IMG/VR virus record: IMGVR_UViG_3300033074_000806
Span: 66,588-130,587 of that record
DNA: 64,000 bases
Direction: 5' to 3' (one strand)
Source: a virus
Lineage: Duplodnaviria; Caudoviricetes
Shown: positions 613 to 39,477 of the stretch, one piece after another
Position numbering within the stretch: position 1 is the stretch's first letter
Layout of the letters: each line of letters opens with the position of its first letter
Made by a program: the position numbers and the translations under genes
Notes under the pieces: generated by a model
Seen by the model: only the letters and a program-made list of their open reading frames with translations
Told to the model about the DNA's origin: nothing
The model's database searches: none

Positions 613-3108
613 ATGCCAAATTATAATACATTTAGTTCTCATAGCCCAACTGGAGCAGCCATAACTGGTGCTAGAGTTGTAGTATCTCCTAATGAATATG
701 CGCCTGAAGGCCGTCGTATAGAATTCCCAGCTAACTTTAGTGTTTATGTAAATAAACAATCAAATATAGATGGCTCATTCCAAGTAGCAGAAGAACATTA
801 TTTGACACAGATAGTAGGCACACGACTCTATTTGTATCATAGACCACTTGTAAATAGCAATGGAACAATCACCACTATAACTAGTAGTGATGGAACTATA
901 GCTACTAGCAACACTAATGCTAAGCAAGGATACATAGAATTTTCAGCGCTTCCCACGGCCAGCAGCTTTGTAATTACTTACAGCGCATCTCCTGATTGTG
1001 TTTCAATGTGGCACTTTAACACATTGCAAGACGATGTAATGGAGATTCAAAAAACTATTGGTGTAACAAACTATACAGGTTGGCCAGGCCTACGCCATGT
1101 TGGATATGCATTAGCTAATGATCCTGCAGACAATATAGCTTCACTATTTAGTAATGCTCTATACCTACAACATTTAAATAAAAACCTTCGCATATCATCT
1201 ACTGAAACAGCTGGTTATTATCCTACACTGGGCTCAGGACATTTAATTCAAGTTGGGTCAAGATACGATAAAGTTAATCTAGAAGGAACTGGAATAACTC
1301 TTGCAGCCAATGTTGAAGCTACCAATCCTTTGGCTACTATATCCACTGTAATCGAGCTAGGTAATAATACTGGAGATAGGATAACTTACCGCGGATCGTT
1401 GTCTGGAGAAGGGCAAACTACAATAGGTGGCGCACTATGGCCTAACCATTCAGGTGCTCTTGGTTCCATAACTACAGCACAGTATACTGGAGCTATGCTC
1501 CGAGTTAATGGAAATGAAACTATTTTAGGAAACCTATATGTAAATGGTGCCGTAACTGTTGTCCATTCAACTGGTGAGACTTCTACTATATTAGGAGATT
1601 TCACTGTTAATGACGAGCTGTTTGTCAATGGTGTTTCTCATTTAATTGGTCCTGTAGAAACTAACAACGTTACAGTAAATCAAAATTTAATCTATGAAGG
1701 AAATTTGATTGCTGGTAACTCAGCAGGTGCAGGAGCGGACGGCCATTCAGTTGTAGATAATTTAGATGCGTCAGAAGTTGCTCATACATATAAGTATGCT
1801 ATGAAGCGCAATCTAAGAAATTATATTGTAGCTGCTCCTAAGTATTATGGAACGGTTTTACCAAAACGAGGCGCGTATACACCTAATGGTTTTATAAGCA
1901 GTGGTAACTTTGTTGGAGAAATATTTAACTATTCTGGCCTATTAAACGCTGCTGCAAGTTCTTCTGGCGCCTATCTATCCATACTACAGCTACTGTGCAC
2001 TGGAACTAGAATGGCTATTGTTAGCGGCTTTTATACAGGCATACTTGGCTTTGTGGATGGCGGCTGGTTCTCTAAAGGAATGATGGATCCAGGGGCTCTA
2101 CACATAGATCTTCCTACAAAAAATTATAGCGCTCCAATATATGGCTATACAGTAGAAGAGTTAACTGGAACAGCAAGTGGAGAGATACGCCGCCTTAATG
2201 TGTATACACCAGAGCAGCCTACTGAGAGCACACTAGGTAATCCTCCATACTCTTTGTATTCGCCTGGAGCTAGACACTGGCAATTTATTGATGATGTAAC
2301 AAGTAATGCTACTGATCCTACAATAAGAATTTCAGCCACTAATACAAGTCCACTTGTCATAGCATTTGATGAAGAGATTAGAATACTCAACGCTAATAGC
2401 CCTAACATATCCATAGCAACTACGGCTGGTCATGCCGTATCTGGATCTATAGACACATCACCTACTGGGGTTGTTTATGTGTTCGCTAGTCGCAACTATA
2501 ATTCTAATATAGAAACTACTCCTACTTTTATAACAAGAGCAATACCTTTTGCAATGCCGGGAGAAGTAGCTGTAGGCGAAGTTTGCTTGACTAGAACTGG
2601 AGTGACTGAGTGGAGAGTAAATGAAATAACTTCCTACAGGCCGGGTGGTTATTATGACTCTGCTTGGATACCAATCAATACTGCTGTCGATACTGTATCA
2701 GGTAGATCAACACCAAGAATAAATTATGGCAGCACAAATGCTTCAACCAAGTTATACTTTAATCATAATCTTGGTTGTGATTTAGATTTTGCATATGTAG
2801 ATTTCAAACTATTCTTAGGAGCTTATGGCACTAAGGATGTAACTACATTATGGCCAAACAAATTTAATACATTTAGCCACAGTCTATTTGGACACGATCA
2901 TAGACGGCAAGTTGGTTTGAGTGGTGCCTTTACTGTTGTCGATCTAAATAATCGCGGAAGTAATGCTTCAACTCAAAATGATGCTAGCCTGTTCTATCTT
3001 GATGGCCGACTTGCTGGAGTTCAAATTTCCGAATCCTTATTAGCACCTACACAAAGTGGCGTTACAGCCTTTAACTACTTGAGACTAATAGCAAAGAGAA
3101 CTGAATGA
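613..3108 (+). CDS. Putative tail/baseplate structural protein, 831 aa, with beta-repeat segment
   Basis: Long ORF in a coupled structural operon; GNLYVNG/GDFTVND-type beta-strand repeats; rich in S/T/G. Confidence 0.55.
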   Translation: MPNYNTFSSHSPTGAAITGARVVVSPNEYAPEGRRIEFPANFSVYVNKQSNIDGSFQVAEEHYLTQIVGTRLYLYHRPLVNSNGTITTITSSDGTIATSNTNAKQGYIEFSALPTASSFVITYSASPDCVSMWHFNTLQDDVMEIQKTIGVTNYTGWPGLRHVGYALANDPADNIASLFSNALYLQHLNKNLRISSTETAGYYPTLGSGHLIQVGSRYDKVNLEGTGITLAANVEATNPLATISTVIELGNNTGDRITYRGSLSGEGQTTIGGALWPNHSGALGSITTAQYTGAMLRVNGNETILGNLYVNGAVTVVHSTGETSTILGDFTVNDELFVNGVSHLIGPVETNNVTVNQNLIYEGNLIAGNSAGAGADGHSVVDNLDASEVAHTYKYAMKRNLRNYIVAAPKYYGTVLPKRGAYTPNGFISSGNFVGEIFNYSGLLNAAASSSGAYLSILQLLCTGTRMAIVSGFYTGILGFVDGGWFSKGMMDPGALHIDLPTKNYSAPIYGYTVEELTGTASGEIRRLNVYTPEQPTESTLGNPPYSLYSPGARHWQFIDDVTSNATDPTIRISATNTSPLVIAFDEEIRILNANSPNISIATTAGHAVSGSIDTSPTGVVYVFASRNYNSNIETTPTFITRAIPFAMPGEVAVGEVCLTRTGVTEWRVNEITSYRPGGYYDSAWIPINTAVDTVSGRSTPRINYGSTNASTKLYFNHNLGCDLDFAYVDFKLFLGAYGTKDVTTLWPNKFNTFSHSLFGHDHRRQVGLSGAFTVVDLNNRGSNASTQNDASLFYLDGRLAGVQISESLLAPTQSGVTAFNYLRLIAKRTE

Positions 3109-5663
3109 CCTGCTCAGAAAGATTTCTTAACATGGAAGGACAGATACTTCCACCCATTACTAATTACGAATACGAAGATAATCTAAGTATCCGTGGTATT
3201 AATGATAGATACTTTAGATTCGAAGATGTGTCTAGCGAGTCTGAGTATCTATTTATTGATAGAGTTAGAAATGGATATTTAGAATCTGGAGTGTTTCCAA
3301 CAGGCACCGGTATACTTAACCTTAGGTTAACTGGTGTATTCGCAACAGGTATTACAAACTGGGCAGTAAGCGGCGCAACAGGATATTTAATTCCTCAATC
3401 TGGCGTAGATTTAAGTGGCCTTCCTGTTGTCACTGGTAGTGTAATGACTAGATCTATCTACGAGGGATATAGCGTTGCATTAGTAAACTATGATACAACT
3501 GGTAGTTATTTAATACAGACAGGGATATCACTAACAACTGGAGCTCGTCATCAATTTTTTGCTCAGATTCAGCAGCCGTATGCTTACGGGAATATTACTA
3601 AAAATGTTTCTGTTCATATCATAGGCTATACAGGAGGTATACCTATAGCGTATTATGATCATGTTTCAGGAAGTTGGTATAACAATACCACGCCTCCAAA
3701 CACGACTGCTACTCAGACACCTACTGGATTACGCTTTGAGTTTTATACAACTTCATTTCCTGGTGCAACTCCTACAAGCTATGCGGTTAGGATAGCATTA
3801 ACGGGTGCTGCCACCAAATCTACAACTGGTAATCCTATGATAGTCTTAGCTGATGATATTCATGTTGATGAATACTTAGCTAGAGATGCATTTACAGATG
3901 TAATAGTTCCAACGGGATATCTAATTCAGATTACTCCTGATCTTGGATGGCATGATACCTTATCAATGTTTGGTGAAAGGAACAATGAAATTAACCCCCA
4001 CCTAACAACTCTTGGTCCATATACTGTAGAACAAGAAAATCTGATTGATAATACAGACGGTAGCATTACCGCATTTCTATCAGAAGATGAAATGCAAAAG
4101 GCCACCAATGAGAACTTTAGAAGTTACTTATGGCGGGCTATAGCTTTAGGACCAAACACCATAGGTGAAGGCGGCCTACCAAGAAGATTTACCTATGTTG
4201 GAAAAATATTTGATAGCGAATTTACGATAAATAAGGTAGAAGACTCTGAGTCAATTATAAAAGTTATTACTGGAACCAAAGGCCAGCGAATGTCAGTTCT
4301 TGTAGACGAAGAGGCAAACCATCCAGGACTAGAATACCCAACAGCTAATAGCTGGAAGTTAACTATTCTTATGGATGTGGAATATAAGAAGCTAGCTATT
4401 AGAGGACAGGATCAGGGCGGTGGAGTAACTAGCGTTCGATACTTAGAGTTAAAATCAAATGCAGTAAGTGTTAGTGAGCGGCCTCTATGGAATATCTTTG
4501 ACGATTTCGCGGCGCTACTGGACATCCAACGGCTACCAGATGAAGATAACTATAAGCTAATTGATAGAGTTAAAGATGCGGTTAATAATCCTGGAGCACC
4601 ATATTATGAAGGTGTGCTAAATAGCTCTACTAGAGAACTAGGTATCAAAAAAGAATCAGCAGGCATAACCTTAGGTATATCAAAAAATTATATACCCTAC
4701 AACTTGCGCGCGGTTGCTGTAGTAACTTCTATTGGAGTATTACTAAGAACAGATGATCTAATAACTACTGAGCTAGTTTACTTAGATCCAATAACACTAA
4801 AAGCTACAGTCTCCTATCCAATATATGATAATCCAATCATAATTGAAAGCGAGTATGGAGAAAAAATAGACGACAATGATATTGATTTTTATGGTGTAGA
4901 TTCTGAAAATCCAGATCTATACTCTATTAAAATAGCTGATGAAAAAACGGCAGGGAAGTTATTAAAAATAACTTATCCATATTTTAGACTATACAAATAT
5001 ATTGATTATCCATATCTTGGACAATTGCTATTAGCTATAAATCAATTTACTGACTCTCTAAATCGAGAAGTAATTACTGCCACTATTGATCCCCAGCTAT
5101 CAGGTTCTGAAAACTCTGATGGATTGTTACTAGGAGAATATCCTATAACAGTAGATTCTTCTGTAGATATTGCTTGGGCTGCAATAGTTTTACGAAGAAT
5201 ATCTGATAGGTTGTTTAGAGACAGCTATAAAGACGATAATGAAAACCTTAGGAAGACCCGTTTTTATTCCTTCATTAAGGAATTAAAATCCAATACAAAT
5301 ATCGAATGGGGAAGCCTACGTTCAGATAGAGCTTACTGGGATGCTGCAAATAACAAAGACTTAGGGTTCGATCATTTAGAAACAAGATGTGATCCATCTA
5401 TTGTGCAATATACTAGTAATGATATTATACTAGATTCTATACATGCACATGGGCGAGGGCTCAGTGGCTACAGTGGAGAAAAAATTGATAACACAATATT
5501 AAACTATAACAGCTTCATTCCTGGAGTCGCTCACACATTCGATTTAGAACCGTCAGTATATATTACTCAATCTAAGGCGCCAATCTTATCTCAAGTGTTT
5601 AGTATAGTAGTTGGAGAAACAGGCAATTCATCTTTAAAGTATTTCACAGGTAATATTATCTAA
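3105..5663 (+). CDS. Putative baseplate wedge-like protein, 852 aa, with (S/T)G-rich N-terminal domain
   Basis: WNIFDDFAALLDIQRLPDEDNYKLIDRVKD...PG...EGVLN..RELG resembles the LD..G...R..E.D..R.R signature of contractile-tail wedge subunits; ATGA overlap. Confidence 0.5.
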   Translation: MTCSERFLNMEGQILPPITNYEYEDNLSIRGINDRYFRFEDVSSESEYLFIDRVRNGYLESGVFPTGTGILNLRLTGVFATGITNWAVSGATGYLIPQSGVDLSGLPVVTGSVMTRSIYEGYSVALVNYDTTGSYLIQTGISLTTGARHQFFAQIQQPYAYGNITKNVSVHIIGYTGGIPIAYYDHVSGSWYNNTTPPNTTATQTPTGLRFEFYTTSFPGATPTSYAVRIALTGAATKSTTGNPMIVLADDIHVDEYLARDAFTDVIVPTGYLIQITPDLGWHDTLSMFGERNNEINPHLTTLGPYTVEQENLIDNTDGSITAFLSEDEMQKATNENFRSYLWRAIALGPNTIGEGGLPRRFTYVGKIFDSEFTINKVEDSESIIKVITGTKGQRMSVLVDEEANHPGLEYPTANSWKLTILMDVEYKKLAIRGQDQGGGVTSVRYLELKSNAVSVSERPLWNIFDDFAALLDIQRLPDEDNYKLIDRVKDAVNNPGAPYYEGVLNSSTRELGIKKESAGITLGISKNYIPYNLRAVAVVTSIGVLLRTDDLITTELVYLDPITLKATVSYPIYDNPIIIESEYGEKIDDNDIDFYGVDSENPDLYSIKIADEKTAGKLLKITYPYFRLYKYIDYPYLGQLLLAINQFTDSLNREVITATIDPQLSGSENSDGLLLGEYPITVDSSVDIAWAAIVLRRISDRLFRDSYKDDNENLRKTRFYSFIKELKSNTNIEWGSLRSDRAYWDAANNKDLGFDHLETRCDPSIVQYTSNDIILDSIHAHGRGLSGYSGEKIDNTILNYNSFIPGVAHTFDLEPSVYITQSKAPILSQVFSIVVGETGNSSLKYFTGNII

Positions 5664-8600: not shown

Positions 8601-9190
8601 TTCCAACAAGACGTGCCGCTACCTATGACCAAATTACTTCAGTCGAGTTGAACTATAGAGCAAATCCAGAACAACATGGGAATGTGATTATATTAGATGG
8701 CAGCTATAATAAGATTCCAACCTCAGCCAGCAGAGCTTTCAGAACTATTTATAGACCAACTTACAGTCAAAATTTTAGTATAATAAATTTGAACTATCCA
8801 GCCACTCCTGGCTCGGTTAAGGTAATAGTGAATGGAATAAACTTGCTAGAATCTTATCTAGCTAATCCAGACAGCGATCAATTTTTTGTTGATTATCAGA
8901 GTAATAAAATTTTACTAAAGGGTAGAATAGACGAAGCCATAGTTGAGTATGTTCCTAGCTATGTGTTTATAAATCTCGCAAACCCATATAGGTTACAATT
9001 CTATCACGAAAAACTATTCGGCTCTTATACAGGGCCCATTACTATTGGATACGATGCGCTAATAGACCTAAGTATAGTAGTATTAAAACCAAATGGCGTT
9101 GATACAATAACTAAGACCCACACCATTACCGCACAGAATCATCTAGTATCAAATTTTAGACAGTTTAATACCATAGCACTAGAATACTAA
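5663..9190 (+). CDS. Virion protein, 1175 aa, with N-terminal right-handed beta-helix (pectin-lyase-like) and a CBM-like beta-sandwich
   Basis: YKTVQQAID..ITIQVAAGTY, NVTIEGLRFQN, VKIKNCIVNDN, closing DPKF..LSLLPISP motif; later NLAANCQFD..EWTRY..LYVDGFQYE. Confidence 0.6.
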   Translation: MVTYNYTVSSASGYKTVQQAIDSIAAELEDSPVLTGDITIQVAAGTYPGFIFPRGTTLALLGTELRIIIKSAGNFFPVFDGRLNPSEQYVGADLDSANPNVTIEGLRFQNFAVGIRATNGSHKVKIKNCIVNDNTNVNILLEQCNNSAVLQCVITNGDFGVVSRLCKNTALYHNSIFLNGSVGNADAGIWIQLANDYGSGLADTGKAYIVGNVIWNTIGPAAILFQEDIELKAIVSNYNDLVKTAETLIAIEKKAYVPDKPRERKNIASLSEWKDLRILSNPDSSILDAKSISQDPKFLQVAKSKTKQNGLYIDLSLLPISPVLGLVPSFHSELAQAVIWLPSYIESSEFRTDIVNNLRNSGTTAAGANDKKSNSGFFGQDVFISPRDLALTKNCDIDPLRDLIYKRLDIWLPKIRKGFFSSHEREYYLYSKKACRTIGECAVTKFKLPGTVITTKPIKLSVAGENVEDPRYIDIIGNELILYHYDLDIQDGTEEVELQCYIRKWQSNVSGFIYSPVYYRFKISQGTTKFYLPPDYIPDGPVVITDDRSAPNDNDRLANREFKLVWDTEMQRTEIIFANNSNLAANCQFDRFAGSDAYRPLNWNSQNTYLYSGQGYNIEPYVGDYVCVVEPAGYLEQLLPIDNNAHAISWHAKAGAITGITGFFVTGNYNVSPEDNSYYICKFYDSTYQWLGLDLSGIYTVNPEWTRYFITIGSGANADKTIEVDCDVSGISINNFIPERSAFCSFRLVNNVDYNLYVDGFQYEKAEKPSIYHRKFRLSELTVEYETSSSKEFIDTRLAMSPVRNSFSQGFIHIPEIPASIYDGPLNPNVTTLNEIRWPLGRKLIIPWARLNGKDKLRRKTVFNLIPEKHSDIIKPYHISYQPFDIILNPETIVCRQGDTNGVGFTIQVSTSEGNPYAGGKYAVGISEPLARFPGWLHKRYLGANEQLAPTINGKLDSAGSSSILWIPPDETVIQFAGQVPTRRAATYDQITSVELNYRANPEQHGNVIILDGSYNKIPTSASRAFRTIYRPTYSQNFSIINLNYPATPGSVKVIVNGINLLESYLANPDSDQFFVDYQSNKILLKGRIDEAIVEYVPSYVFINLANPYRLQFYHEKLFGSYTGPITIGYDALIDLSIVVLKPNGVDTITKTHTITAQNHLVSNFRQFNTIALEY

Positions 9191-11499
9191 TGGCCTCCGG
9201 ATTAAAAATAATTGATACTGAAAACCTTAGTAGAGAAAAAACTTTACTAATTAAATACTATCTAAGCAATACAGGTGAGTGGGTTTATGCTTTAGATAAT
9301 TGTGGATACAAGCCTGTTTGTGATGAATATTGGACTATAATGTATCCGAATTTTCAGCACCCACAACACACAGATGCTTCTCCAGATAGGCCATTAATTA
9401 TCTTGACAGGATCATTATATGGAGTATTTGCTTGGAACTACGGTGGTATTCCAGGCATACAGCCTTCTGATTTTGATGCTGAACATAGTTACTTAGTGCA
9501 AGTTACTATGGTTAATCAAGGCTGTTTATTTACTGGCAATAACACTGGACAAACAGGCTCTGGTGGAACAACAGGATCAGTTCCTGTTACGGGAATAAGT
9601 GCGCCACCACAATCAGGATACTATCCTCCCAAAGGTCCAGGGCGAATAACTCCAGGTTATGGAGCGCCGCCATATCCAAGGATACCAGACATTCCTATTA
9701 TAGTTCATAATTCTGGAACGCTAATAAGAATTAATAATCCAGATCCAGGAACCTATGCAGAGGTTATCCAGCCAGATAATGGCTACTATTCAAGGCCTAT
9801 TGAGTTTAGCGAGGGCAGCTTGGAGTATACGAATATTCCATTGCGAGACTTATCTATAGGAAATAATCCTATAAAGCCTTCTCTGTTCTATGGTAATGGC
9901 CCAGGTGAAATTGTAGAGAATCCATTGTTTATTCAAAAAGAAAAAGATCGAAATAATCTCCCTTCTAAATTTGATAATAAGCTAAGCAGCGACCCAGAAG
10001 GCTGGCACGCATTAAATCCAGATTCAAGTTTTAGTAATAAAAATTTAACACCAAGCTTTGTATTTGGAGATCAAAACTCTAAAGACATGAGCAAGGTTGG
10101 AAGATCCAATAGACCTATAAATAACTCTAGTATGGATCTATTAATTGAAGGCAGCAATGCTAGTGGCATTGTTTATATAAATAGAACTATTTCGTTGAGT
10201 GGAGGATCAATGTTAGATTCTCGCGCTTCAATTCCATCAGTATCATTAATTCCTGGAATAACAACAGATGATTTATCTACTAAGATTCCAATAAATGAAT
10301 TGCCTGCAGGATTGGACGCTGGCTCATATAACTCTAGAAACTATTCTGCCTTAGATACCTCTAGTGATAGTTCTACTAGACCATATACATCAAGCTCAGT
10401 TGCTTATAATGCTGATATAGTTATTTCAAATCCTGTTGTTCGCCGTGGAGAACTACTGACTATTGCAGCTAGTTGCTACCCTAATACCGATGTTTCTATC
10501 TACGCTAAGTTAATAATTGTTGATACTGAGGGTAAGCAAATTGATGCTGCTACCTCGATAGCAGCTATAGCTAATAGCTCTGAAGCATCAAAAATAGCTA
10601 TAACAACTAGAACAGATATCTATGCACTAGGTAAAATATTTATCAATGCTTTATTTTTTGATAGTAGCAACAACATTGTAGCTAGCGCCAGTAAAACAGC
10701 AGAAGTAATTGATCAAATAATAGAGTCCTCTGGTGCCATACCAAAGACTATTAATAGTTATAGACTTCCTACTAATGGGCATATATCAGATAATCTTGCG
10801 AGATACGCAGGTGTTAATATAAACAAGTATGTTGATTTTTATATAGATGATAAGCCACGCTACTTCATTTTTAGAATGTTAGCTGGCCAATTAGCCTTTG
10901 TCATTAAATCATTAAACGCAACTACCTTAGATACCAACCTAATAGCAAAAGTATACGATCCTGATGTCGTTGGATCGATGGCAGGTTCATCAACAAGAAG
11001 AGTTGATATTACGCAACACTCAGATCCTGTATTGACTGTCAAAGATAAGATAAAGATAAATGATGTAACTATTTTTGATAACGAACACATAATTGGAACT
11101 AAGCCTGTATCATTGCCATTTGATATGATTGTAACACCCATTCTTTCTATATCCAAGAATGGTAGTAATGTAGAAGGCCCAGCAAAAGTAAGAATGTATT
11201 TAAATGATGATGCTAATCTTATAGTTCCAGTAAGGATTTCTAAGACAAATGATGGCCTATCAGATATTGCTATCTATAATCTTCCTTATGCAGGAGAAGA
11301 GATTCGAATGCTTGTCGGAGGTAAAGATCAATATGATGTTCCAGATGAGATTGTAACCTATAGTGCTACTGGCTCGCTTATTGGTGAAACTACATTTACT
11401 ATAGAAACATCTTTAATAAACTCTGATAACTGGATTCATTTGTTACGGTATCCTTATAATATAGCTAATGATATAATCTATTCTGAGAGGTTTGTATAA
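9190..11499 (+). CDS. Hypothetical structural protein, 769 aa, with Pro/Gly-rich linker
   Basis: Long coupled ORF; GQTGSGGTTGSVPVTGISAPPQSGYYPPKGPG low-complexity stretch. Confidence 0.45.
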   Translation: MASGLKIIDTENLSREKTLLIKYYLSNTGEWVYALDNCGYKPVCDEYWTIMYPNFQHPQHTDASPDRPLIILTGSLYGVFAWNYGGIPGIQPSDFDAEHSYLVQVTMVNQGCLFTGNNTGQTGSGGTTGSVPVTGISAPPQSGYYPPKGPGRITPGYGAPPYPRIPDIPIIVHNSGTLIRINNPDPGTYAEVIQPDNGYYSRPIEFSEGSLEYTNIPLRDLSIGNNPIKPSLFYGNGPGEIVENPLFIQKEKDRNNLPSKFDNKLSSDPEGWHALNPDSSFSNKNLTPSFVFGDQNSKDMSKVGRSNRPINNSSMDLLIEGSNASGIVYINRTISLSGGSMLDSRASIPSVSLIPGITTDDLSTKIPINELPAGLDAGSYNSRNYSALDTSSDSSTRPYTSSSVAYNADIVISNPVVRRGELLTIAASCYPNTDVSIYAKLIIVDTEGKQIDAATSIAAIANSSEASKIAITTRTDIYALGKIFINALFFDSSNNIVASASKTAEVIDQIIESSGAIPKTINSYRLPTNGHISDNLARYAGVNINKYVDFYIDDKPRYFIFRMLAGQLAFVIKSLNATTLDTNLIAKVYDPDVVGSMAGSSTRRVDITQHSDPVLTVKDKIKINDVTIFDNEHIIGTKPVSLPFDMIVTPILSISKNGSNVEGPAKVRMYLNDDANLIVPVRISKTNDGLSDIAIYNLPYAGEEIRMLVGGKDQYDVPDEIVTYSATGSLIGETTFTIETSLINSDNWIHLLRYPYNIANDIIYSERFV

Positions 11500-30402: not shown

Positions 30403-30680
30403 TGAAAGCGTTTTTAGAAGTTCTTAAAGAATTACTTACATCAAAGAAATTTATTTCAGCAGTAGCCGGTCTAATTGTTTTAGGCTGTGCTAAGATAGGA
30501 TTCAATGCCGATCCTAATACAATTACAGGCATTATAACTTTATTTACAGCTCTACTTATTGGTCAAGGCGCAGCTGATTTTGGTAAAGCAAAAGAAGAGA
30601 TGTCTAACATACCAAAGCTAGAGATAATTAAGAGTGCTCTAACAAAAGAACAACCAAAGGCAGAAGATAAACAAGTATGA
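30402..30680 (+). CDS. Putative holin (2 TM helices)
   Basis: 92 aa, SKKF followed by two hydrophobic segments, GQGAAD motif and charged C-terminus. Confidence 0.6.
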   Translation: MKAFLEVLKELLTSKKFISAVAGLIVLGCAKIGFNADPNTITGIITLFTALLIGQGAADFGKAKEEMSNIPKLEIIKSALTKEQPKAEDKQV

Positions 30681-32570: not shown

Positions 32571-33125
32571 ATGGTAGACATCACTGGACTTTCTGGCCAA
32601 GTAACCGCTCTAGAACAGAGTGTTGCTAGTCTTACAACTTTATTGCTAGGAAAAATTTCCATAGAAACCTTAAATGCCTACCAGCAAGTAGTCAATCAAA
32701 GTGTAAATAGTTTTGATGGCACTTTAGTTAACTTAAGAGATAAAGTTAATACACTGCAAGGACTGTATTCTAATACTATCTTTACTGAAAATACTAGATA
32801 CGTTTTACAAACTGGAACAGATTATGCCTATGGCATAGCTCTAACTGGATTTTTAGAGACTACTGGAAACTATACATTTACTTCTACAGGGGCAAAGCAT
32901 ATAGCTGTAACCTTTACTGGAGATAGACTTATAACACTTCCTAATACTACTGGGGTTGTAGGAATGATGTATAGTGTTAAAAAGACATATACAGGAACTA
33001 ATATTATAACGATTACTGGACATAGCGCCGGTCATTTAATTGATGGCCAATTGACTAAAACACTTACAGGCAGCAGAGATAGCGCGATACTTAGAGCAGG
33101 ACCAACTGGCTGGTATCTATACTAA
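32571..33125 (+). CDS. Short fibre-like protein (coiled coil plus beta-sandwich tip), TG-rich
   Basis: Heptad-like N-terminus; ITLP...VKK....ITI......IDG...L...W pattern seen in phage fibre tips; 12 of 20 Gly preceded by T/S. Confidence 0.55.
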   Translation: MVDITGLSGQVTALEQSVASLTTLLLGKISIETLNAYQQVVNQSVNSFDGTLVNLRDKVNTLQGLYSNTIFTENTRYVLQTGTDYAYGIALTGFLETTGNYTFTSTGAKHIAVTFTGDRLITLPNTTGVVGMMYSVKKTYTGTNIITITGHSAGHLIDGQLTKTLTGSRDSAILRAGPTGWYLY

Positions 33126-35348
33126 ATGTCCTATAAATCCAAGAGCTTCTATGTAGATGTCTCTAAAGGCGCTAACTTCGGCGCCGTTACTGATAGTATA
33201 TCTAAGGATATCGGAGTAGAAGGGGATTATATAAAAGTTATTGAGGCTGTGTCACTTGGAAATGGTGACGTTCAATTAACTTTATATTATAGAACTCAAA
33301 ACAAAACTTCTGTCTTAGGGTTTTCGCCACCACCTGGGGCCATTGTTCCTTCTGGAACAGATATTAATCACGCTAGTATATTGTTTTCTGATAAGATCGA
33401 CTCGGCTAGATTAGCTAGTGGATCATTCTCATTTGATGGAAGTGGTATTGCCACTGGCATCTATGTAGAAAGTGGAAACTATATAGTAAGGGTGCTATTG
33501 CCACCAGGAGCTAGGACAGGAGGCGGCTACCATTCCCTAGAGATAAACTCTGATAAACTTTATTATCAGAATGCCAGCAACATTCAGCACTCTGCTATAG
33601 TTGCCTATAATATAAATGCCAAGGCTTCTCCACAGCCTGGTATGTCTGTGCCCTATACGTTTGATCTAGGGCGGCGAGGACTAATAGCTATAGAGGGTAT
33701 TGTTAGCGATAAAAGTTATTTGCCAGCAGATAGAATCAATCAATTTTTATCACAGAAAGGATTAACTAGTGATAGATTAATTGCAGCTACGTCAGTAGAT
33801 GTTTCAATAGACAAGGTATATATTTTCTTTGTCTACTTTAAAACATTAGAGCCGCAGCTACTATATGCTTATCCGTATGTCTATTCGTTAGCGATAGATA
33901 CAGCTGCTCCACGGGAAATAGTTTTTGTATTTAGAGAACCTTTAGATAGGAACTATACCTTAAATACTTTAGGACTATTCAAATTAGTTACTTCATATAA
34001 CACTGAAACTAATGTTCCTCTCAATAAGATAAGCGTTGACGCTGATGGACGATCAGTAAGAATAACTACTAGTGGCGTTATAACAAGCGCGGGCATCTAT
34101 GACTTTAGAATTGGAGCCCTAAGATCTGCAGATGGTAGCGTTTCTACAAGAGATATTATATATAGTATACAGGTTTTCCCCTATACAATTGATGGTGGAT
34201 CAGTAATTATAGCGGGCGGAACTACTGGTATAACAGGTATAGCTGGTGGTTTAGTTTTTGAAGACGTAGATAGAAAGATAATCAAAGTTAGTGGTGACGA
34301 TACTATAATTGTTTCAAGCGATCATATAAGCGTTGGAACTATTTATAATAACAATATAGCAAATAATACTATCTCTGGTGGTAAAATTGCTAATGGGCAA
34401 GTTGTTAGGTCTACTGTAATTAATGGCTCATCATTATATGATAACATAACTTTAACTGGAGAGGGTAGTGTTACAGTTTTTAATAACTCAAACACTATTG
34501 TTTTTAGCGGCAGTTATGGCACTGGTGTGGGTGGAGGTGCTGGAACAGGGATAGGGTATATTACTTCAGGTAATGAAACATCTACTCTACCTAATTCAAT
34601 TAGATTATCTACAGATTTTACAGTTACATCTCAGCAATTATTTGTTAACGAAGGCCAGATTGATCATAATTCTTTGGCCAATCTTAATGTCGGTGATCCA
34701 CATACTGGCTATATAAGAAAGAGTATAGCAACTACAAAAGGCGATTTAATCGTTGCAAGCGGAGCTGCTGATCTTTATAGATTTGGTGTTGGGGCAAATA
34801 ACTTAGTTCTCACAGCTGATTCTACAGCGCCCTATGGGATTACCTGGAGGGCGACTAGTGGTGGTATAACTGGTGAATACGTTCAAAGCTTTAACGGACG
34901 AACTGGTATAGTAACTGGTCAAATTAATGATTACTATTTTGATCAAATAAATACTGCTGAAATTTTCCAAAGCATTGGAGATCTAGTTATTGGAAGTGGT
35001 ATTGGAACTGGTAGAAGATTTCCTATCGGATTTGAAGGACAGGTTCTTACCTCAAGACTTAGCGATCCTTTAAAAGTTCGCTGGGAGTATATGTCCTCAT
35101 TCGGGCTAGTAGAAGAAGCTGGAGATCTTACTGACTTTTTATTACCATCTGGCTCAGTTCAGCATGCCCAAGTGCTAGTCTATAATAGTGGAGCAGTAAG
35201 TTCCAATATTACAGGGCAGTGGATGAATACCACACTAGTGTTTAATAGTGGATTAAGTGGTATTTATAATACTGGGACTAATACATTTTATGTAAACTCA
35301 CTAGCTGGGCTACAAGATTCTAGACGATATACTTTATTTATGATGTGA
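33126..35348 (+). CDS. Tail fibre protein, 740 aa, with Ig-like N-terminal domains
   Basis: TTKGDLIVA..VG.NNLVLTADS...GITW fibre repeat (twice), HNSLANL..DPH motif, VQSFNGRTG. Confidence 0.65.
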   Translation: MSYKSKSFYVDVSKGANFGAVTDSISKDIGVEGDYIKVIEAVSLGNGDVQLTLYYRTQNKTSVLGFSPPPGAIVPSGTDINHASILFSDKIDSARLASGSFSFDGSGIATGIYVESGNYIVRVLLPPGARTGGGYHSLEINSDKLYYQNASNIQHSAIVAYNINAKASPQPGMSVPYTFDLGRRGLIAIEGIVSDKSYLPADRINQFLSQKGLTSDRLIAATSVDVSIDKVYIFFVYFKTLEPQLLYAYPYVYSLAIDTAAPREIVFVFREPLDRNYTLNTLGLFKLVTSYNTETNVPLNKISVDADGRSVRITTSGVITSAGIYDFRIGALRSADGSVSTRDIIYSIQVFPYTIDGGSVIIAGGTTGITGIAGGLVFEDVDRKIIKVSGDDTIIVSSDHISVGTIYNNNIANNTISGGKIANGQVVRSTVINGSSLYDNITLTGEGSVTVFNNSNTIVFSGSYGTGVGGGAGTGIGYITSGNETSTLPNSIRLSTDFTVTSQQLFVNEGQIDHNSLANLNVGDPHTGYIRKSIATTKGDLIVASGAADLYRFGVGANNLVLTADSTAPYGITWRATSGGITGEYVQSFNGRTGIVTGQINDYYFDQINTAEIFQSIGDLVIGSGIGTGRRFPIGFEGQVLTSRLSDPLKVRWEYMSSFGLVEEAGDLTDFLLPSGSVQHAQVLVYNSGAVSSNITGQWMNTTLVFNSGLSGIYNTGTNTFYVNSLAGLQDSRRYTLFMM

Positions 35349-35357
35349 GATTTTGTT

Positions 35358-35693
35358 ATGTCTATGATAGAGAAATGCTTTTTTCAACAAACTTTGACTG
35401 GAACTAATAACATTGTTATGGTTACAGGCGAAACTAATACCAGTATTATAATTAGAAATATTAATCTATCTAATCTTAGTGGCACTAGTATCAATTATAA
35501 CTTATACTTTAGTATGACTGGTGGAAGTAGCTTTACAACTGGCCACATGCTTAGAAGATCTGGAGAGTTAAATCCTTACGAGGTATTTAGTTATGACCAG
35601 TTAGTGTGCTTCTATGGCTCTGGTAGCTTAGGGGTTCAGGCAAGCGCCGGCAATCAATTAACTGTCACTGTATTTGGTGCGAGTCTTACATGA
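35358..35693 (+). CDS. Small tail-fibre accessory/adaptor beta-sandwich protein
   Basis: 111 aa between two fibre genes; IIRNINLSN...LTVTVFG pattern. Confidence 0.5.
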   Translation: MSMIEKCFFQQTLTGTNNIVMVTGETNTSIIIRNINLSNLSGTSINYNLYFSMTGGSSFTTGHMLRRSGELNPYEVFSYDQLVCFYGSGSLGVQASAGNQLTVTVFGASLT

Positions 35694-38305
35694 TGAATTT
35701 CCCTAATAGGTTTACTGAAAGAGTTTACTATAACCCAAGTGCTTATAGTGGTCTATCAGTATTAACTCTAATAGGGAGCGCGCATCAATCTGGTAACTTA
35801 CAAGAATGGAAAAATAATGCGCTCACGGCATTAGCATATATAACTCCAACTGGAGGGTTCTTCGGGGCGCAAGTAATTGTTACTGGTAACATCTCAGGAG
35901 CTAATATATTAACAGCAGGGTTAGTTGACGGCGTAGATGTTTCTACCTTAGGCTCTAACTTTACTACACATACTGGTTCTTCCTCTGCCCATAATACAAC
36001 CTCTGCTATTGTTGGCATTTCTGATAGCCAAACCCTTACTAATAAGACAATAACAGGACTATCAAATATAGTTGCTGCAACACACCTTCAAGCAGGTGCA
36101 GGTCTTGTATCTATATCTGGTTCTGCAGCGCCCTCTACTGGATATTTATTGATAGCAAGCAGTTCTACTAATGCTGCTTGGCAGGCTCCTACAGTTTATT
36201 CCTTTACTGGCTGGGCTAGAATAACTGATGGCAGTGCTACAGCTACTGGTCACATTACTGGAGACACATTTAAACTTCGTAGTGCGAATAATATTTTGAC
36301 TGTTGGTATTACAGATAGTGATCCTACGCATGGCGATAATGCGTTATTTACTATAGTTCAATCAAATATTAATCATCAGTTGATCAGCGGATCTGGAGTT
36401 GTTACTCATGCGCAATTAGATACGCATGTAACATCCACCACTGGACACGGCACAACTAGTGCTGTAGTAGGAATAAATGATAGCCAAACACTAACTAGCA
36501 AAGTTTTAACAGGGCTAACTAATACAGTAGCTGCTACACACTTACATGCACAATCAGGACTTATACAGATAAGTGGCGCGGCTTTACCATCTACTGGCCA
36601 AGTATTAACAGCAGTTAGCTCTTCTTTAGCTACTTGGCAGCCGCTACCTGCAGACAGATACTTTACTGGTTGGAGTATTATTACAGACGGAACTAATAGA
36701 CTTACAGGATCTGCAACTGGTGATACTATTAAGTTTAGAGTTCCTAATACAATGCTATCCGTATCTGTTGTGGATAATGATGGCACCCATGGTGACTATG
36801 TTTTATATAGTCTAAACCCATCAAATATTCCACACACTGGGCTTTCAGGTGTTGGTAACGTAACACATACACAGCTAGATACACATGTTACTTCGACTAC
36901 TGGACATGGCACCACATCTGCAGTCGTTGGTATCTCTGATACTCAGACACTAACCAATAAGACTTTAACTGGCCTATCTAATCAAATATATGCTAGTCAT
37001 CTAATGGCTGGTCCAACAGGAGTTGTTATAAGTGGTTCTGCTCCTCCTACGTCTGGTCAAGTATTGACAGCTATAAGCGCAACGAGTGCGAGTTGGCAAA
37101 CTGTTTCTTCGACTGGTGGATCTTCAGCGTTCACTGGATGGGGAAGAATAATTGACAGCTCTAACAATCAAATAACTGGCTCTACTACTGGTGATTGGTT
37201 AAAGTTTAGATCTGCCGGTGCATCTTTAACTATAACTGCTAAAGATAATGATGCAACTCACGGCGATAACTTATTATTTACTATAGTTCCTAGCCAAATA
37301 TCTCACGCAAACCTAGGAAACTTAACTGCTGATGATCATCCTCAGTATGTTATTGGTGATGCCAGTAGAACCTCTGATCATATTTCATTAGTAAATGATC
37401 CTGGTAATAATTTTGTAACCCTTACTATTACACAAGGCACAGATCAAGCCAGTGCTAATCTTATTGAAGTTTATAGAAATGATTTTCAACCACTATTTAC
37501 TTTAGATAATGCTAACGGGGTTGGCGCCTTCTTTGGTCAATGCACTCAAAATAATGGCGTAGCTATTCTTGATCAATCAAATTTAACTTCAGCATTTAAT
37601 AAAACATTAACTGGCCTATCAAATAATATTAGTGCTTCTAGGCTCCAAGCTGGAGCAGCTATGGTTACAGTATCTGGGGCCTCAGCTCCAGCATCAGGAC
37701 AAGTCCTAACAGCCATTAGCTCTAGCGGTGCTACTTGGCAAAGTATAAGCATATCTGGAGCTACTTTTAATGGTTGGAGCTTAATAACAGACGGCACCAA
37801 TAACATTACTGGTTCAGCTACTGGAGATACATTAAAGTTTAGATCAGTTACTGGCGCGATAACAGTTGGAGCTGCAAATGCTGATCCTACTCATGGAGAT
37901 AATATTTATCTAAACTTAGTTCCTGGTCAAATAGCCCACGCCACTCTTGCGGGTATAGGAACTAAATCTCATGATCAAATAGAAACTGATTTATTGACTA
38001 TCAGTTTATATATATTAACACATGAAGGCAGCACATCAACTCACGGTGTAGTTGGTAACATAGTAGGAACAGCAAGCACTCAAACACTTACTAATAAAAT
38101 TATTACTGGCCTATCCAATACTGTAGCTGCTACCCATTTGCATGCGCAAGCTGGTTTAGTTATGGTTAGCGGGTCGGCCGCACCAACCTCAGGACAGGTG
38201 CTAACTGCAGTTAGTAGCACAGAAGCAACATGGCAAGATGGTGGAGGACCAGGTGGTGGTGTTTCATTTTCAACAGCAATGATGATAGCGAGTTTAAGAA
38301 TATGA
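35690..38305 (+). CDS. Long tail fibre protein built from alternating repeats, 871 aa
   Basis: Five module-A copies (QTLTNKT-type...GQVLTA..S..A.WQ; one lacks the QTLT start) alternate with four F[TN]GW..I[TI]D...D.THGD modules. Confidence 0.75.
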   Translation: MMNFPNRFTERVYYNPSAYSGLSVLTLIGSAHQSGNLQEWKNNALTALAYITPTGGFFGAQVIVTGNISGANILTAGLVDGVDVSTLGSNFTTHTGSSSAHNTTSAIVGISDSQTLTNKTITGLSNIVAATHLQAGAGLVSISGSAAPSTGYLLIASSSTNAAWQAPTVYSFTGWARITDGSATATGHITGDTFKLRSANNILTVGITDSDPTHGDNALFTIVQSNINHQLISGSGVVTHAQLDTHVTSTTGHGTTSAVVGINDSQTLTSKVLTGLTNTVAATHLHAQSGLIQISGAALPSTGQVLTAVSSSLATWQPLPADRYFTGWSIITDGTNRLTGSATGDTIKFRVPNTMLSVSVVDNDGTHGDYVLYSLNPSNIPHTGLSGVGNVTHTQLDTHVTSTTGHGTTSAVVGISDTQTLTNKTLTGLSNQIYASHLMAGPTGVVISGSAPPTSGQVLTAISATSASWQTVSSTGGSSAFTGWGRIIDSSNNQITGSTTGDWLKFRSAGASLTITAKDNDATHGDNLLFTIVPSQISHANLGNLTADDHPQYVIGDASRTSDHISLVNDPGNNFVTLTITQGTDQASANLIEVYRNDFQPLFTLDNANGVGAFFGQCTQNNGVAILDQSNLTSAFNKTLTGLSNNISASRLQAGAAMVTVSGASAPASGQVLTAISSSGATWQSISISGATFNGWSLITDGTNNITGSATGDTLKFRSVTGAITVGAANADPTHGDNIYLNLVPGQIAHATLAGIGTKSHDQIETDLLTISLYILTHEGSTSTHGVVGNIVGTASTQTLTNKIITGLSNTVAATHLHAQAGLVMVSGSAAPTSGQVLTAVSSTEATWQDGGGPGGGVSFSTAMMIASLRI
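35990..38240 (+). repeat. Degenerate intragenic A/B module repeats of the tail fibre
   Basis: Recurrent DNA such as actggcctatc and cat/cacgg(c/t/a)ga at module-spaced intervals; clear repeats at protein level. Confidence 0.75.
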
Positions 38306-39477
38306 TATTAGATACAACTTCAAAGATTTTAGAATTAACTACCGGAGCAAATGTTTCAACCGATTATTATGTTTCATATGTAGATATAACTACAACATCA
38401 TTAACGCCCGGATCTAATCAAGGTAACGTAGCAACTGCTGCTACCACAACTATAGTATCAGCTCCTAGTGCGTCTACTCAGCGGCATATCAAATTTCTTT
38501 CTGTGCGGAATAGAAGCACAACTACTTCTCAGACAGTTAATATAAAGCTTGATGTGTCAGGAACAGAATATAGAGTAAGCGCCGACATTACTTTGGCACC
38601 TGGGGAAGTGTTAGAGTATACTGAGTCTACTGGATTTAATACCATTACTTCTACAGGTGGTCGAAAATTAATATCCCAGAATAAAGCTGCCCTAGAGGGT
38701 AATACTTATGCATACATGAAAGTTGGCAGCGCTTCCGAAGCTGCTGGTGTTTGGTATTGTCATGCTAAAGATGCAGGCGCCCCAAGCACTTGGAACTGGT
38801 ATTTTGGAACTACTGGAATGAATGGTAGAGCTACAAATGGGCCGACAGAAACTGGTGTTCTTATCTGTCCAAATGCTTCAGGTGGTAATAATTATTTGAC
38901 TAGCTTTGTTGTATCAAGTAGCGTAGTCCATGCTCATTATTTATTTGATATCCTATGGATTAATACTGGTATAAATACTACAAGCACTGGTGTTCAAACT
39001 GTTAACTCTGCTGGATTTCCAGCTAGAGATGCTAATGGGACTACCGGAGGGGTTGGATTATGGGCAGGTATATTAGTCCATACAGCAACTACAAATGCTT
39101 CTGCATTAACAAATGCTATTATAACTTATACTAATGAATACGGGCAAGGCTCTAGAACTGGCAGAATACAAAGCTTTCCAGCTACAGCAGTGGCTGGCAC
39201 CGTGGCCTGGTATAATTTGACAGGCGGTGATCATGGCATACAAAGTATACAGAGTATACAATTTCCAACACTACCATCTGGCGGACCTATAAGTCTTATA
39301 GCTGCTAGAATGATAGCCGGCACTTCTATGGCGATAGCTAATCAAGGGGCTAATGCTCCTATAGATCCTACGATAGGAGTTAGATTATATGACGGCACTT
39401 GTTTAGTTCCAATGTATATTGGTACAACTACTACAGCTACTAATACAGTAGGCTCCTATACTATATCAACAAAATGA
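38302..39477 (+). CDS. Distal tail fibre/receptor-binding protein, about 391 aa
   Basis: Probable start is ATG 38302 (ATGA overlap with the upstream stop), giving MILDTTSKILEL; T/S/G-rich beta protein at the end of the fibre cluster. Confidence 0.55.
   Translation: MILDTTSKILELTTGANVSTDYYVSYVDITTTSLTPGSNQGNVATAATTTIVSAPSASTQRHIKFLSVRNRSTTTSQTVNIKLDVSGTEYRVSADITLAPGEVLEYTESTGFNTITSTGGRKLISQNKAALEGNTYAYMKVGSASEAAGVWYCHAKDAGAPSTWNWYFGTTGMNGRATNGPTETGVLICPNASGGNNYLTSFVVSSSVVHAHYLFDILWINTGINTTSTGVQTVNSAGFPARDANGTTGGVGLWAGILVHTATTNASALTNAIITYTNEYGQGSRTGRIQSFPATAVAGTVAWYNLTGGDHGIQSIQSIQFPTLPSGGPISLIAARMIAGTSMAIANQGANAPIDPTIGVRLYDGTCLVPMYIGTTTTATNTVGSYTISTK

What the first reader, a model, noticed from the sequence alone, without database searches (positions are those of the whole stretch)
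613..39477. Domain-restricted (S/T)-Gly enrichment in virion proteins: candidate sequon for phage-encoded O-glycosylation
Hand counts of SG/TG dipeptides: about 74 in the 1689-aa protein; 12 in the 184-aa protein (12 of its 20 glycines); 7 in the 111-aa protein; 10 within about 50 residues near the start of the 852-aa protein (ESGVFPTGTGILNLRLTGVFATGITNWAVSGATGYLIPQSGVDLSGLPVVTG). The neighbouring 982-aa structural protein has only 5 although it is S/T-rich. The motif is scattered through unrelated folds, uses varied codons and is not a collagen repeat. Known precedents: Ser-Gly is the proteoglycan xylosylation site, Thr in GPT repeats of Bacillus BclA is O-glycosylated, and some mycobacteriophages and giant viruses glycosylate their virions with their own enzymes. 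Inference: these are selected acceptor sites for the adjacent glycosyltransferase operon, giving a heavily glycan-coated tail.
Basis: partly seen in the sequence, partly recalled or inferred. Interest (0 to 1): 0.8.

Follow-up and report, generated by a model that had tools for sequence, protein, structure and literature searches.

The report
Ser/Thr-Gly excess on phage tail proteins
The outer tail, baseplate and fibre proteins of this uncultured large phage and its relatives put a serine or threonine in front of about 39% of their glycines, which other phages and look-alike bacterial proteins do not do. The phage also carries a large membrane-free sugar-building operon, so the pattern may mark sugar-attachment sites, but no chemistry shows this yet.

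Summary
After composition-preserving shuffles, [ST]G is 2- to 3.5-fold over-represented in nine window proteins. Examples are the 1689-aa protein (74 observed, 31 expected, z=9) and the 852-aa N-terminal domain (18 observed, 5.3 expected, z=6.6). TG and SG are the two most enriched of all 400 dipeptides, and the reverse order G[ST] is not enriched.

- **Level:** the signal is frame-specific, so it acts on the protein, and it is restricted to certain domains.
- **Conservation:** orthologues in four related phage contigs keep it at 24-33% identity.
- **Controls without it:** T4 virion proteins, Bacillus phage 0305phi8-36, distant homologues of the same baseplate family, and 30 bacterial ConA-like/LamG giant proteins, which favour NG and DG instead.
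- **Gene context:** this phage and its only complete relative both carry soluble sugar/glycosyltransferase islands.

The glycosylation reading is plausible (about 0.4) but unproven. I found no relative that lacks glycosyltransferases. About half the sites hold their position, which also fits a structural role. Non-virion proteins do not avoid the motif.

Unchecked notes from this scan describe similar [S/T]-G-type motifs with glycosyltransferases in several other phage clades.

The parts
613..3108 (+). 831-aa baseplate-periphery protein, moderately [ST]G-enriched (24 observed, 15.1 expected, z=2.7)
3105..5663 (+). 852-aa baseplate protein. The N-terminal CBM4/CBM61-like beta-sandwich (residues 1-260) has 18 sites against 5.3 expected (z=6.6). 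The conserved C-terminal 590 residues are not enriched.
9190..11499 (+). 769-aa structural protein with a local [ST]G-rich, Gly-rich linker at residues 61-170 (8 observed, 2.9 expected). The rest is not enriched.
12560..17629 (+). 1689-aa fibre/baseplate giant protein with ConA-like lectin features. It is the strongest case: 74 sites against 31.2 expected, z=9. Orthologues in G001-G004 have z 4.8-6.8.
17629..22374 (+). 1581-aa structural protein with 43 sites against 19.7 expected (z=6.1), all but 3 of them in residues 451-1581.
22374..25094 (+). 906-aa virion protein (phrog_20243) with an [ST]G-dense segment at residues 551-810 (13 observed, 3.8 expected, z=5.4).
27454..30402 (+). 982-aa virion protein. 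It is an internal negative control: rich in S/T but with only 5 sites against 10.3 expected (z=-1.8).
32571..33125 (+). 184-aa fibre-like protein with an N-terminal coiled coil and a C-terminal beta domain. S/T precedes 12 of its 20 glycines, and 10 of those sites lie in residues 79-184. The G is kept at all 12 sites and [ST]G at 10 in the homologue at 48% identity.
33126..35348 (+). 740-aa fibre protein with 30 sites against 16.2 expected (z=4.0).
35358..35693 (+). 111-aa protein with 7 sites against 3.0 expected (z=2.8).
35690..38305 (+). 871-aa fibre protein with 44 sites against 25.1 expected (z=4.6).
42359..56743 (-). Sugar-nucleotide and glycosyltransferase operon with no clear transmembrane segment (highest 19-residue Kyte-Doolittle means 1.62-1.63). 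It encodes RmlD-like, cupin/FdtA-like, SDR epimerase/dehydratases, an RfbH-like enzyme, an NDP-sugar dehydrogenase, WecB-like 2-epimerase, about four GT-A and two GT-B glycosyltransferases.
55652..56743 (-). GT4-type (GT-B) glycosyltransferase of 363 aa. It is the only GT shared with the complete relative G002 (38% identity). Its best solved relative is chlorovirus GT B736L (E=1.6e-6).

Best explanation
The [S/T]-Gly pairs are most likely acceptor sites for O-glycosylation of the outer virion proteins: sheath outer domain, baseplate periphery, fibres, and a candidate head decoration protein.

The proposed mechanism is inferred, not shown. Soluble phage glycosyltransferases act in the host cytoplasm on folded or folding beta-rich domains. 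They recognise a hydroxyl residue followed by glycine at a strand cap or tight turn. The preceding residue is usually hydrophobic or Pro and never Asp, and Pro never follows the Gly. Further GTs then extend the first sugar with the deoxy-, amino- and N-acetyl-sugars that the operon can make. The result would be a glycan-coated tail.

The statistics, the lineage specificity and the gene content are shown. The enzyme-substrate link and the presence of any glycan are inferred.
For: 1. The excess is directional. TG and SG rank first and second of 400 dipeptides, G[ST] is flat, and the signal is frame-specific.
2. It marks several proteins with no detectable sequence relationship, and only certain domains within them.
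3. It is specific to this lineage.
   - T4 baseplate, fibre, sheath and tube proteins have SG 1.04 and TG 1.04.
   - Virion proteins of 0305phi8-36 are flat, and that genome has no GT2.
   - Distant homologues of the 852-aa family have mean z=0.64, against 2.4 for close ones.
4. It is not a property of the fold class. Thirty bacterial LamG_3/ConA-like giant proteins of similar G/S/T content have [ST]G O/E 1.10, TG 0.81, NG 1.71 and DG 1.44. The phage has TG 2.34 and NG 0.68.
5. Orthologues in G001-G004 keep about a twofold density at 24-33% identity. Where the Gly is kept, the preceding residue is S or T in 73-75% of cases, against 31-38% for control S/T, and it is rarely N or D.
6. The sites fall in exterior parts. 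Fourteen of the 17 sheath sites lie in the non-conserved N-terminal half. The MCP and the giant internal proteins are flat. In the AF2 model, 14 of 19 sites in residues 1-300 sit at strand ends or in tight turns.
7. The operon has no clear transmembrane segment. Neither G000 nor the complete relative G002 has an undecaprenyl-phosphate priming transferase (Bac_transf) or a ThyA-type pyrimidine hydroxymethylase or hydroxylase. This leaves a soluble protein as the likeliest acceptor.
8. Published precedents exist. TibC heptosylates Ser-313 in an N-S-G-G turn of TibA (PMC4358343). SgtA O-GlcNAcylates Thr or Ser that precede Gly in the GPT repeats of BclA3 (PMC7157674).
Against: - There is no chemical evidence of any glycan.
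- Co-occurrence with GTs rests on two genomes (G000 and G002). G001, G003 and G004 are fragments, so no relative known to lack GTs could be examined.
- Allowing +-4 alignment columns, about half of the sites stay in place between deep lineages, and the unshared excess falls to z 0-2 except in G000. A conserved structural role would fit that just as well.
- The sugar islands of G000 and G002 share only one GT. That GT4 lies next to the primase-helicase and a PD-(D/E)XK nuclease in G000, G002 and a TARA contig, not next to fibre genes.
- Cytoplasmic phage proteins do not avoid [ST]G (O/E 1.05-1.12).
- Four of the 19 modelled sites lie inside predicted strands.
- No GT with a recognisable protein-substrate domain such as TPR was found, and no BAHT-type enzyme.
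Confidence: 0.4

Rival explanations
1. The pattern is a structural habit of this lineage. [S/T]-Gly is this clade's preferred way to cap beta-strands and make tight turns in its outer beta-sandwich domains. It would be inherited from old domains that have diverged beyond recognition, and it has nothing to do with the glycosyltransferases.
For: - The sites sit at strand starts, strand ends and tight turns.
- Roughly half are held at or near the same alignment position at about 30% identity.
- In the 184-aa family the G is kept at all 12 sites and [ST]G at 10 in the homologue at 48% identity.
- In the 852-aa family almost every site is shared by at least two homologues.
- Non-virion proteins show no avoidance.
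Against: - The same fold class in bacteria uses NG, DG and SG, not TG.
- T4, 0305phi8-36 and distant homologues of the same baseplate family lack the excess.
- Site glycines are less conserved than other glycines (0.42 against 0.50, and 0.26 against 0.42). That is unusual for glycines critical to a fold.
- N and D almost never replace S/T, although they are the better turn formers.
- The enriched proteins show no detectable homology to each other.
- G000 has gained extra sites of its own.
Confidence: 0.33
2. The pattern reflects selection for chemical durability. Exposed Asn-Gly and Asp-Gly turns deamidate or isomerise quickly, and in long-lived outer virion proteins they have been replaced by Thr-Gly and Ser-Gly.
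For: NG is depleted (O/E 0.68) and DG is flat (1.07) in exactly the proteins where TG and SG are enriched. Comparable bacterial proteins have NG 1.71 and DG 1.44.
Against: - T4 and 0305phi8-36 virions face similar exposure and show no such shift.
- Non-enriched virion proteins of the same phage keep NG at 1.10.
- This explanation does not account for the exclusion of D, E, K and N before the site or of Pro after the Gly.
Confidence: 0.1
3. The hydroxyl of [S/T]-Gly carries another covalent modification, such as phosphorylation, acylation or an ester cross-link, rather than a glycan.
For: The hydroxyl residue is kept and S and T interchange. The context is specific.
Against: No kinase, acyltransferase or cross-link-forming domain was found in the window. 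The large sugar operon would be left without a target.
Confidence: 0.06
4. The pattern is an artefact of composition, codon-pair bias or a DNA motif.
For: ACT is used more often before GGN than elsewhere, 40% against 25% of S/T codons.
Against: - Shuffles that keep composition give z up to 9-11.
- ACTGG occurs 108 times in frame against 4 and 7 out of frame.
- Other genes of the same genome are flat.
Confidence: 0.02

Closest known systems
Bacterial autotransporter heptosyltransferases (TibC, AAH) acting on TibA and AIDA-I
   Same: A soluble cytoplasmic O-glycosyltransferase hyper-modifies many Ser residues at turns of a beta-rich surface protein. One mapped site, Ser-313 of TibA, lies in N-S-G-G, a Ser-Gly turn (PMC4358343).
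   Different: Those enzymes modify Ser but not Thr, whereas Thr dominates here. They are ADP-heptose-dependent enzymes. No Glyco_transf_9-type GT and no dedicated heptose-synthesis gene were detected in the operon. The substrates there are repeats of one beta-helix, not many unrelated folds.
SgtA-BclA3 (Clostridioides difficile) and BclA-type exosporium glycoproteins
   Same: O-linked sugar is added to Thr, and Ser is also accepted, where the residue is immediately followed by Gly. The GT gene lies next to the substrate gene (PMC7157674).
   Different: The acceptor there is a collagen-like GPT triplet repeat. Here there is no period-3 spacing and no repeats, and Pro precedes the site in only 21 of 269 cases.
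Virion glycosylation of mycobacteriophages by phage-encoded glycosyltransferases (Freeman et al. 2023, cited in PMC12582341; the paper itself is not held)
   Same: The phage encodes its own GTs, and virion proteins are the proposed acceptors.
   Different: No short sequon of this kind has been reported there, to my knowledge. Here the major capsid protein is not enriched (z=0.8), and the signal is on the tail, baseplate and fibres. The operon is far larger (about six or seven GTs plus sugar-nucleotide synthesis).
Chlorovirus and mimivirus capsid or fibril glycosylation by virus-encoded soluble enzymes
   Same: These viruses carry an autonomous, membrane-independent set of sugar-nucleotide enzymes and GTs. 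The best solved relative of the conserved GT4 is chlorovirus B736L (3oy2, E=1.6e-6).
   Different: Those are eukaryotic giant viruses. Chlorovirus glycans are N-linked at atypical sites. The similarity of the GT is weak.
Proteoglycan xylosylation at Ser-Gly
   Same: The bare Ser-Gly dipeptide.
   Different: From general knowledge, that site needs flanking acidic residues and uses Ser. Here D, E and K are depleted around the site, D is absent at -1 (0 of 269), and Thr outnumbers Ser 154 to 115.

Membership tests
Phage virion O-glycosylation by phage-encoded GTs (mycobacteriophage type) | Glycosyltransferase genes are encoded by the phage itself. | tested here: met
   GT2, GT-A-like and GT1/GT4 hits lie in window 48187-56743. 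GT2 and GT4 are also present in the relative G002.
Phage virion O-glycosylation by phage-encoded GTs (mycobacteriophage type) | Glycans are covalently attached to virion proteins. | not testable with these tools
   This needs glycoproteomics or glycan staining of virions or of co-expressed proteins.
Phage virion O-glycosylation by phage-encoded GTs (mycobacteriophage type) | The motif or acceptor is lost when the GTs are absent. | tested here: inconclusive
   Both genomes long enough to judge (G000 and G002) have GTs and the motif. T4 and 0305phi8-36 lack the motif. G001, G003 and G004 are fragments.
BAHT (TibC/AAH) hyperglycosylation of beta-rich adhesins | A heptosyltransferase of the Glyco_transf_9/BAHT type and an ADP-heptose supply. 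| tested here: not met
   No such Pfam or NCBIfam family was found for the operon proteins scanned. The only heptose-related hits are weak matches of generic SDR epimerases, far below cut-off.
BAHT (TibC/AAH) hyperglycosylation of beta-rich adhesins | Acceptor Ser/Thr sits in short loops between beta-strands. | tested here: met
   In the AF2 model, 14 of 19 sites in residues 1-300 of the 852-aa protein lie just before, just after or between strands. The model is of moderate confidence (pLDDT 73).
SgtA/BclA collagen-like glycoproteins | Acceptor Thr lies within Gly-X-Thr triplet repeats. | tested here: not met
   Site spacing shows no period of 3, and no internal repeats were found.
Proteoglycan Ser-Gly xylosylation site | Ser-Gly is flanked by acidic residues. 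| tested here: not met
   D and E are depleted from -3 to +5 around the sites, D is 0 of 269 at -1, and Thr is preferred.
Bacteroidota general O-glycosylation sequon D-(S/T)-(A/I/L/V/M/T) | Asp comes immediately before the hydroxyl residue. | tested here: not met
   Asp at -1 occurs in 0 of 269 sites. The sequon itself is recalled from general knowledge.
Phage DNA glycosylation (hmC, hmU or 5hoC based) | A thymidylate-synthase-family pyrimidine hydroxymethylase or hydroxylase. | tested here: not met
   PF00303 is absent from G000 and from the complete relative G002. The requirement is described in PMC13326640.

The most novel reading that the evidence does not exclude
Environmental tailed phages use a minimal O-glycosylation code that is read through structure: a hydroxyl residue followed by glycine at beta-strand caps. 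Their own soluble glycosyltransferases write glycans onto tails and fibres at these sites. Unchecked notes from this scan report [S/T]-G-type motifs with GT cassettes in several unrelated phage clades. If that holds, virion glycan coats would be a widespread and overlooked feature of phage biology.
Probability: 0.33. Interest if true: 0.85.

Novelty: new variant of a known kind. Interest (0 to 1): 0.62.

Why it matters
Protein glycosylation of phage particles has been shown experimentally only for a few mycobacteriophages, and no acceptor motif is known. A dipeptide signature that can be read from sequence would allow glycosylated virions to be predicted from metagenomes. It would also identify the phage GTs that act on proteins. 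Several practical questions depend on it: how phage tails resist proteases, how they stick to or avoid polysaccharide matrices, how they are recognised by immune systems, and how receptor-binding proteins should be engineered. If the structural reading is right instead, the finding is still an unusual lineage-specific rule of beta-turn usage (TG in place of NG and DG).

Tried and rejected
- **Composition artefact:** rejected by shuffles.
- **DNA-motif or codon-pair origin:** rejected because the signal is frame-specific.
- **Collagen-like or tandem repeats, and paralogy among the enriched proteins:** none found.
- **General property of phage fibres:** rejected with T4 and 0305phi8-36.
- **Property of ConA-like/LamG folds:** rejected with 30 bacterial proteins.
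- **Strong positional turnover with conserved density:** my first reading. I had to soften it. Private sites summed over genomes equal the composition expectation. With +-4 columns of tolerance, about half the sites are held in place. Only G000 shows a clear excess of its own.
- **Avoidance of the motif in cytoplasmic phage proteins:** not seen.

**Searches that led nowhere**
- tblastn of the 1689-aa and 871-aa proteins against cultured phages found nothing.
- IMG/VR scans with single proteins or with the 184-aa alignment found nothing useful.
- The alignment of distant homologues was too divergent to scan with.
- GT4 relatives in other viral, bacterial and metagenome contigs are only 22-32% identical and sit in enzyme islands without structural genes.

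**Tools and papers not available**
- Freeman et al. 2023 is not held.
- The AF2 model of the 184-aa protein is of low confidence (pLDDT 62).
Full report
**What the window is.** The window is the right-hand 64 kb of a 130,587-bp IMG/VR virus record, estimated 68% complete. The virus is an uncultured large myovirus. The plus strand from 1 to about 39.5 kb carries a long run of baseplate, fibre and other virion genes. Most have no Pfam match. PHROGs gives only 'virion structural protein' families, which are distantly shared with Bacillus phage 0305phi8-36. The minus strand from 42.4 to 56.7 kb carries a sugar-nucleotide and glycosyltransferase operon. It is followed by a nuclease, a tRNA region and an intein-bearing primase-helicase.

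**Checking the observation.**
- Shuffles that keep each protein's composition give the following. The 1689-aa protein has 74 [ST]G against 31.2 expected (z=9.0). The 1581-aa protein has z=6.1, the 852-aa 4.9, the 871-aa 4.6, the 740-aa and 184-aa 4.0, the 906-aa 3.3, the 111-aa 2.8 and the 831-aa 2.7.
- The 982-aa protein is rich in S/T but has 5 sites against 10.3 expected.
- The reverse dipeptide G[ST] is flat everywhere, and so are all enzymes on the minus strand.
- Pooled over the nine proteins, TG (O/E 2.34, z=11) and SG (1.78, z=6.3) are the two most enriched of all 400 dipeptides. The next best has z=3.7. NG, QG, GG, IG and MG are depleted.
- S or T precedes 39% of all glycines.

**The site context.**
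- The residue before the site is hydrophobic or Pro in more than half of cases. It is never Asp (0 of 269) and rarely Glu, Lys or Asn.
- Pro never follows the Gly.
- Thirty codon pairs are used. ACT is moderately preferred before GGN.
- ACTGG occurs 108 times in the coding frame but only 4 and 7 times in the other frames. Selection therefore acts on the protein, not the DNA.
- Spacing shows no period of 3.
- BLASTP finds no similarity among the enriched proteins and no internal repeats.

**Restriction to domains.** The signal is strongly confined within proteins:
- 852-aa protein: residues 1-260 z=6.6, the rest z=0.6.
- 906-aa protein: residues 551-810 z=5.4, with a single site in the first 550 residues.
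- 1581-aa protein: residues 451-1581 z=7.0, the first 450 z=-0.4.

**Which proteins carry the signal.**
- Upstream of the window, the tail sheath is enriched (z=3.5). Fourteen of its 17 sites lie in the non-conserved N-terminal half.
- A 308-aa protein just before the major capsid gene (z=4.0) and a 155-aa protein in the baseplate module (z=4.1) are also enriched.
- The major capsid protein, the giant internal proteins of 1425, 1802 and 2121 aa, and the core baseplate wedge protein are not enriched.
- The pattern therefore follows outer virion parts. 'Outer' is inferred from homology and gene position, not observed.

**Controls.** All five controls below are negative, so the excess is specific to this lineage and is not explained by fibre proteins or by fold class.
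- T4 baseplate, fibre, sheath and tube proteins show nothing. Pooled SG is 1.04 and TG 1.04, and no protein exceeds z=2.
- The virion proteins of 0305phi8-36, a distant relative, are flat. That complete genome has no GT2.
- Across 121 representatives of the 852-aa baseplate family, close homologues that share the N-terminal domain are enriched (mean z=2.4). Distant homologues are not (mean z=0.64).
- The N-terminal domain of the 852-aa protein folds as a CBM4/CBM61-like beta-sandwich. Language-model features place the 1689-aa protein among phage ConA-like lectin proteins (weak Laminin_G_3 hit).
- I therefore tested the fold class directly. Thirty LamG_3-containing giant proteins from five bacterial genomes have similar G/S/T content. 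They show [ST]G O/E 1.10, TG 0.81, SG 1.41, NG 1.71 and DG 1.44. Ordinary proteins of this architecture use Asn-Gly and Asp-Gly. This phage uses Thr-Gly and Ser-Gly and depletes Asn-Gly.

**Conservation.**
- Four related IMG/VR contigs were retrieved: G001 to G004, of which G002 is a complete 189.7-kb genome with terminal repeats.
- The orthologue of the 1689-aa protein is enriched in all four (z 4.8-6.8). The 1581-aa orthologue is enriched in three of the four. Proteins that are flat in the window are flat in the relatives as well.
- In the 184-aa family the G is kept at all 12 sites and [ST]G at 10 in the homologue at 48% identity.
- In orthologue alignments, when the Gly is kept the preceding residue is S or T in 73-75% of cases. 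Control S/T are kept in only 31-38%. N and D are rare substitutes. Site glycines are somewhat less conserved than other glycines.

**Correcting my first reading of turnover.** I first read the many single-genome site columns as strong positional turnover with conserved density. Further tests weaken that reading.
- Private sites summed over all genomes equal the composition expectation.
- Allowing +-4 alignment columns, about half the sites are held in place between deep lineages.
- A clear excess of lineage-specific sites remains only for G000.
- The sites are therefore moderately conserved in position. Both a functional and a structural reading can accommodate that.

**Structure.** Only secondary structure was available from the models.
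- In the 852-aa model (pLDDT 73), 19 sites fall in residues 1-300. Eight lie just before a strand, four between two strands, two just after a strand, four inside strands and one in a loop.
- The low-confidence model of the 184-aa protein shows a coiled coil followed by a beta domain, with the sites at strand ends.

**The sugar genes.**
- The operon encodes RmlD-like, cupin/FdtA-like, SDR, RfbH-like, NDP-sugar dehydrogenase and WecB-like enzymes. It also encodes about four GT-A and two GT-B transferases.
- It has no convincing transmembrane segment.
- Neither G000 nor the complete G002 has a Bac_transf priming enzyme or a ThyA-family enzyme. All described pyrimidine DNA-glycosylation routes need the latter.
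- By elimination, a soluble protein acceptor is the most economical target. This step is an inference.

**The relative G002.**
- G002 also has a sugar island beside a fibre gene, with a GT2, two methyltransferases, DUF5672 and an epimerase. Its content is different from the window's operon.
- Only the GT4 of 363 aa is shared, at 38% identity.
- Its best solved relative is the chlorovirus GT B736L.
- In G000, G002 and a TARA contig, this GT4 lies next to the nuclease and the primase-helicase rather than next to fibre genes. That weakens the case for it as the priming enzyme for virion proteins.

**Weighing the readings.**
- For glycosylation: the asymmetry, the lineage and domain specificity, the failure of the fold-class and fibre controls, the S/T interchange, and the membrane-free operon. 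Published cases also show soluble GTs modifying Ser-Gly or Thr-Gly contexts (TibC on N-S-G-G in TibA; SgtA on GPT-G).
- Against glycosylation: there is no chemistry. Co-occurrence rests on n=2. No GT-free relative was found. The sites show substantial positional conservation. Cytoplasmic phage proteins do not avoid the motif. No GT has a recognisable protein-recognition module.
- I put acceptor sites at about 0.4. A lineage-specific structural habit gets about 0.33, a chemical-durability replacement of NG and DG about 0.1, another modification about 0.06, and an artefact about 0.02.

**Context from this scan.** Unchecked notes report similar motifs together with phage GT cassettes in several other uncultured phage clades. 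The motifs are [S/T]-G, [S/T]-G-x-T, [S/T]-G-[S/T], G-x-T-[G/A], D-T-G and G-A-T-G. I did not test those genomes, and I treat the notes as leads, not as support. One of them pointed me to SgtA-BclA3, which I checked in the paper. Two notes on this same genome were reproduced here: the all-soluble operon and the motif-dense insert of the 906-aa protein.

**Limits.** Freeman et al. 2023 is not in the library.

Noticed in passing
window 40320-42362 (-): The 680-aa protein at the head of the sugar operon has no Pfam or PDB sequence match. By Atlas features and predicted structure it resembles PcRGLX-like (exo-rhamnogalacturonan lyase) and GH127-type enzymes (TM 0.7-0.77). It is a candidate polysaccharide-degrading enzyme.
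   Followed up: partly
window 55652-58579 (-); G002:157101-164713; L087: The GT4, the PD-(D/E)XK nuclease and the primase-helicase form a conserved neighbourhood in G000, G002 and a TARA marine contig. The rest of the sugar island differs between G000 and G002.
   Followed up: partly
window 12560-38305 (+), pooled: Asn-Gly is depleted (O/E 0.68) in exactly the proteins where Thr-Gly and Ser-Gly are enriched. Bacterial ConA-like proteins have NG 1.71 and DG 1.44.
   Followed up: partly
G003 (IMGVR_UViG_3300035698_004821) 69489-74366: The relative G003 (GC 46%) has lost the excess in its 1581-aa orthologue (22 observed, 18 expected) and is weaker overall. It would be the natural test case for linked loss of GT genes, but the contig ends before that region.
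   Followed up: partly
window 60164-63805 (-): The primase-helicase of 1213 aa carries an intein with a LAGLIDADG endonuclease (Hint, Intein_splicing and LAGLIDADG_3 hits) ahead of the Toprim and DnaB-like domains.
   Followed up: no
window 47051-48190 (-): Two small overlapping ORFs (82 and 85 aa) precede a 239-aa ORF that matches only positions 50-278 of the RmlD substrate-binding model. This could be a split or frameshifted reductase gene.
   Followed up: no
window 48927-49736 (-): The NDP-sugar dehydrogenase is only 269 aa. It matches the end of the NAD-binding domain and the central domain but has no C-terminal domain, and a 160-base gap follows it.
   Followed up: no
window 39474-40133 (+): A 219-aa protein between the fibre genes and the sugar operon has a weak Sigma-70 region 4 match (E=0.008). 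It may be a late transcription factor.
   Followed up: no
window 30402-31021 (+): A holin-like 92-aa protein (phrog_9987) and a second small hydrophobic protein sit in the middle of the structural gene run.
   Followed up: no
window 9190-11499 (+), residues about 115-135: The 769-aa protein contains a short low-complexity stretch in which TG, SG and Gly alternate (TGNNTGQTGSGGTTGSVPVTG), followed by a Pro/Gly/Tyr-rich segment. It looks like a flexible linker.
   Followed up: no
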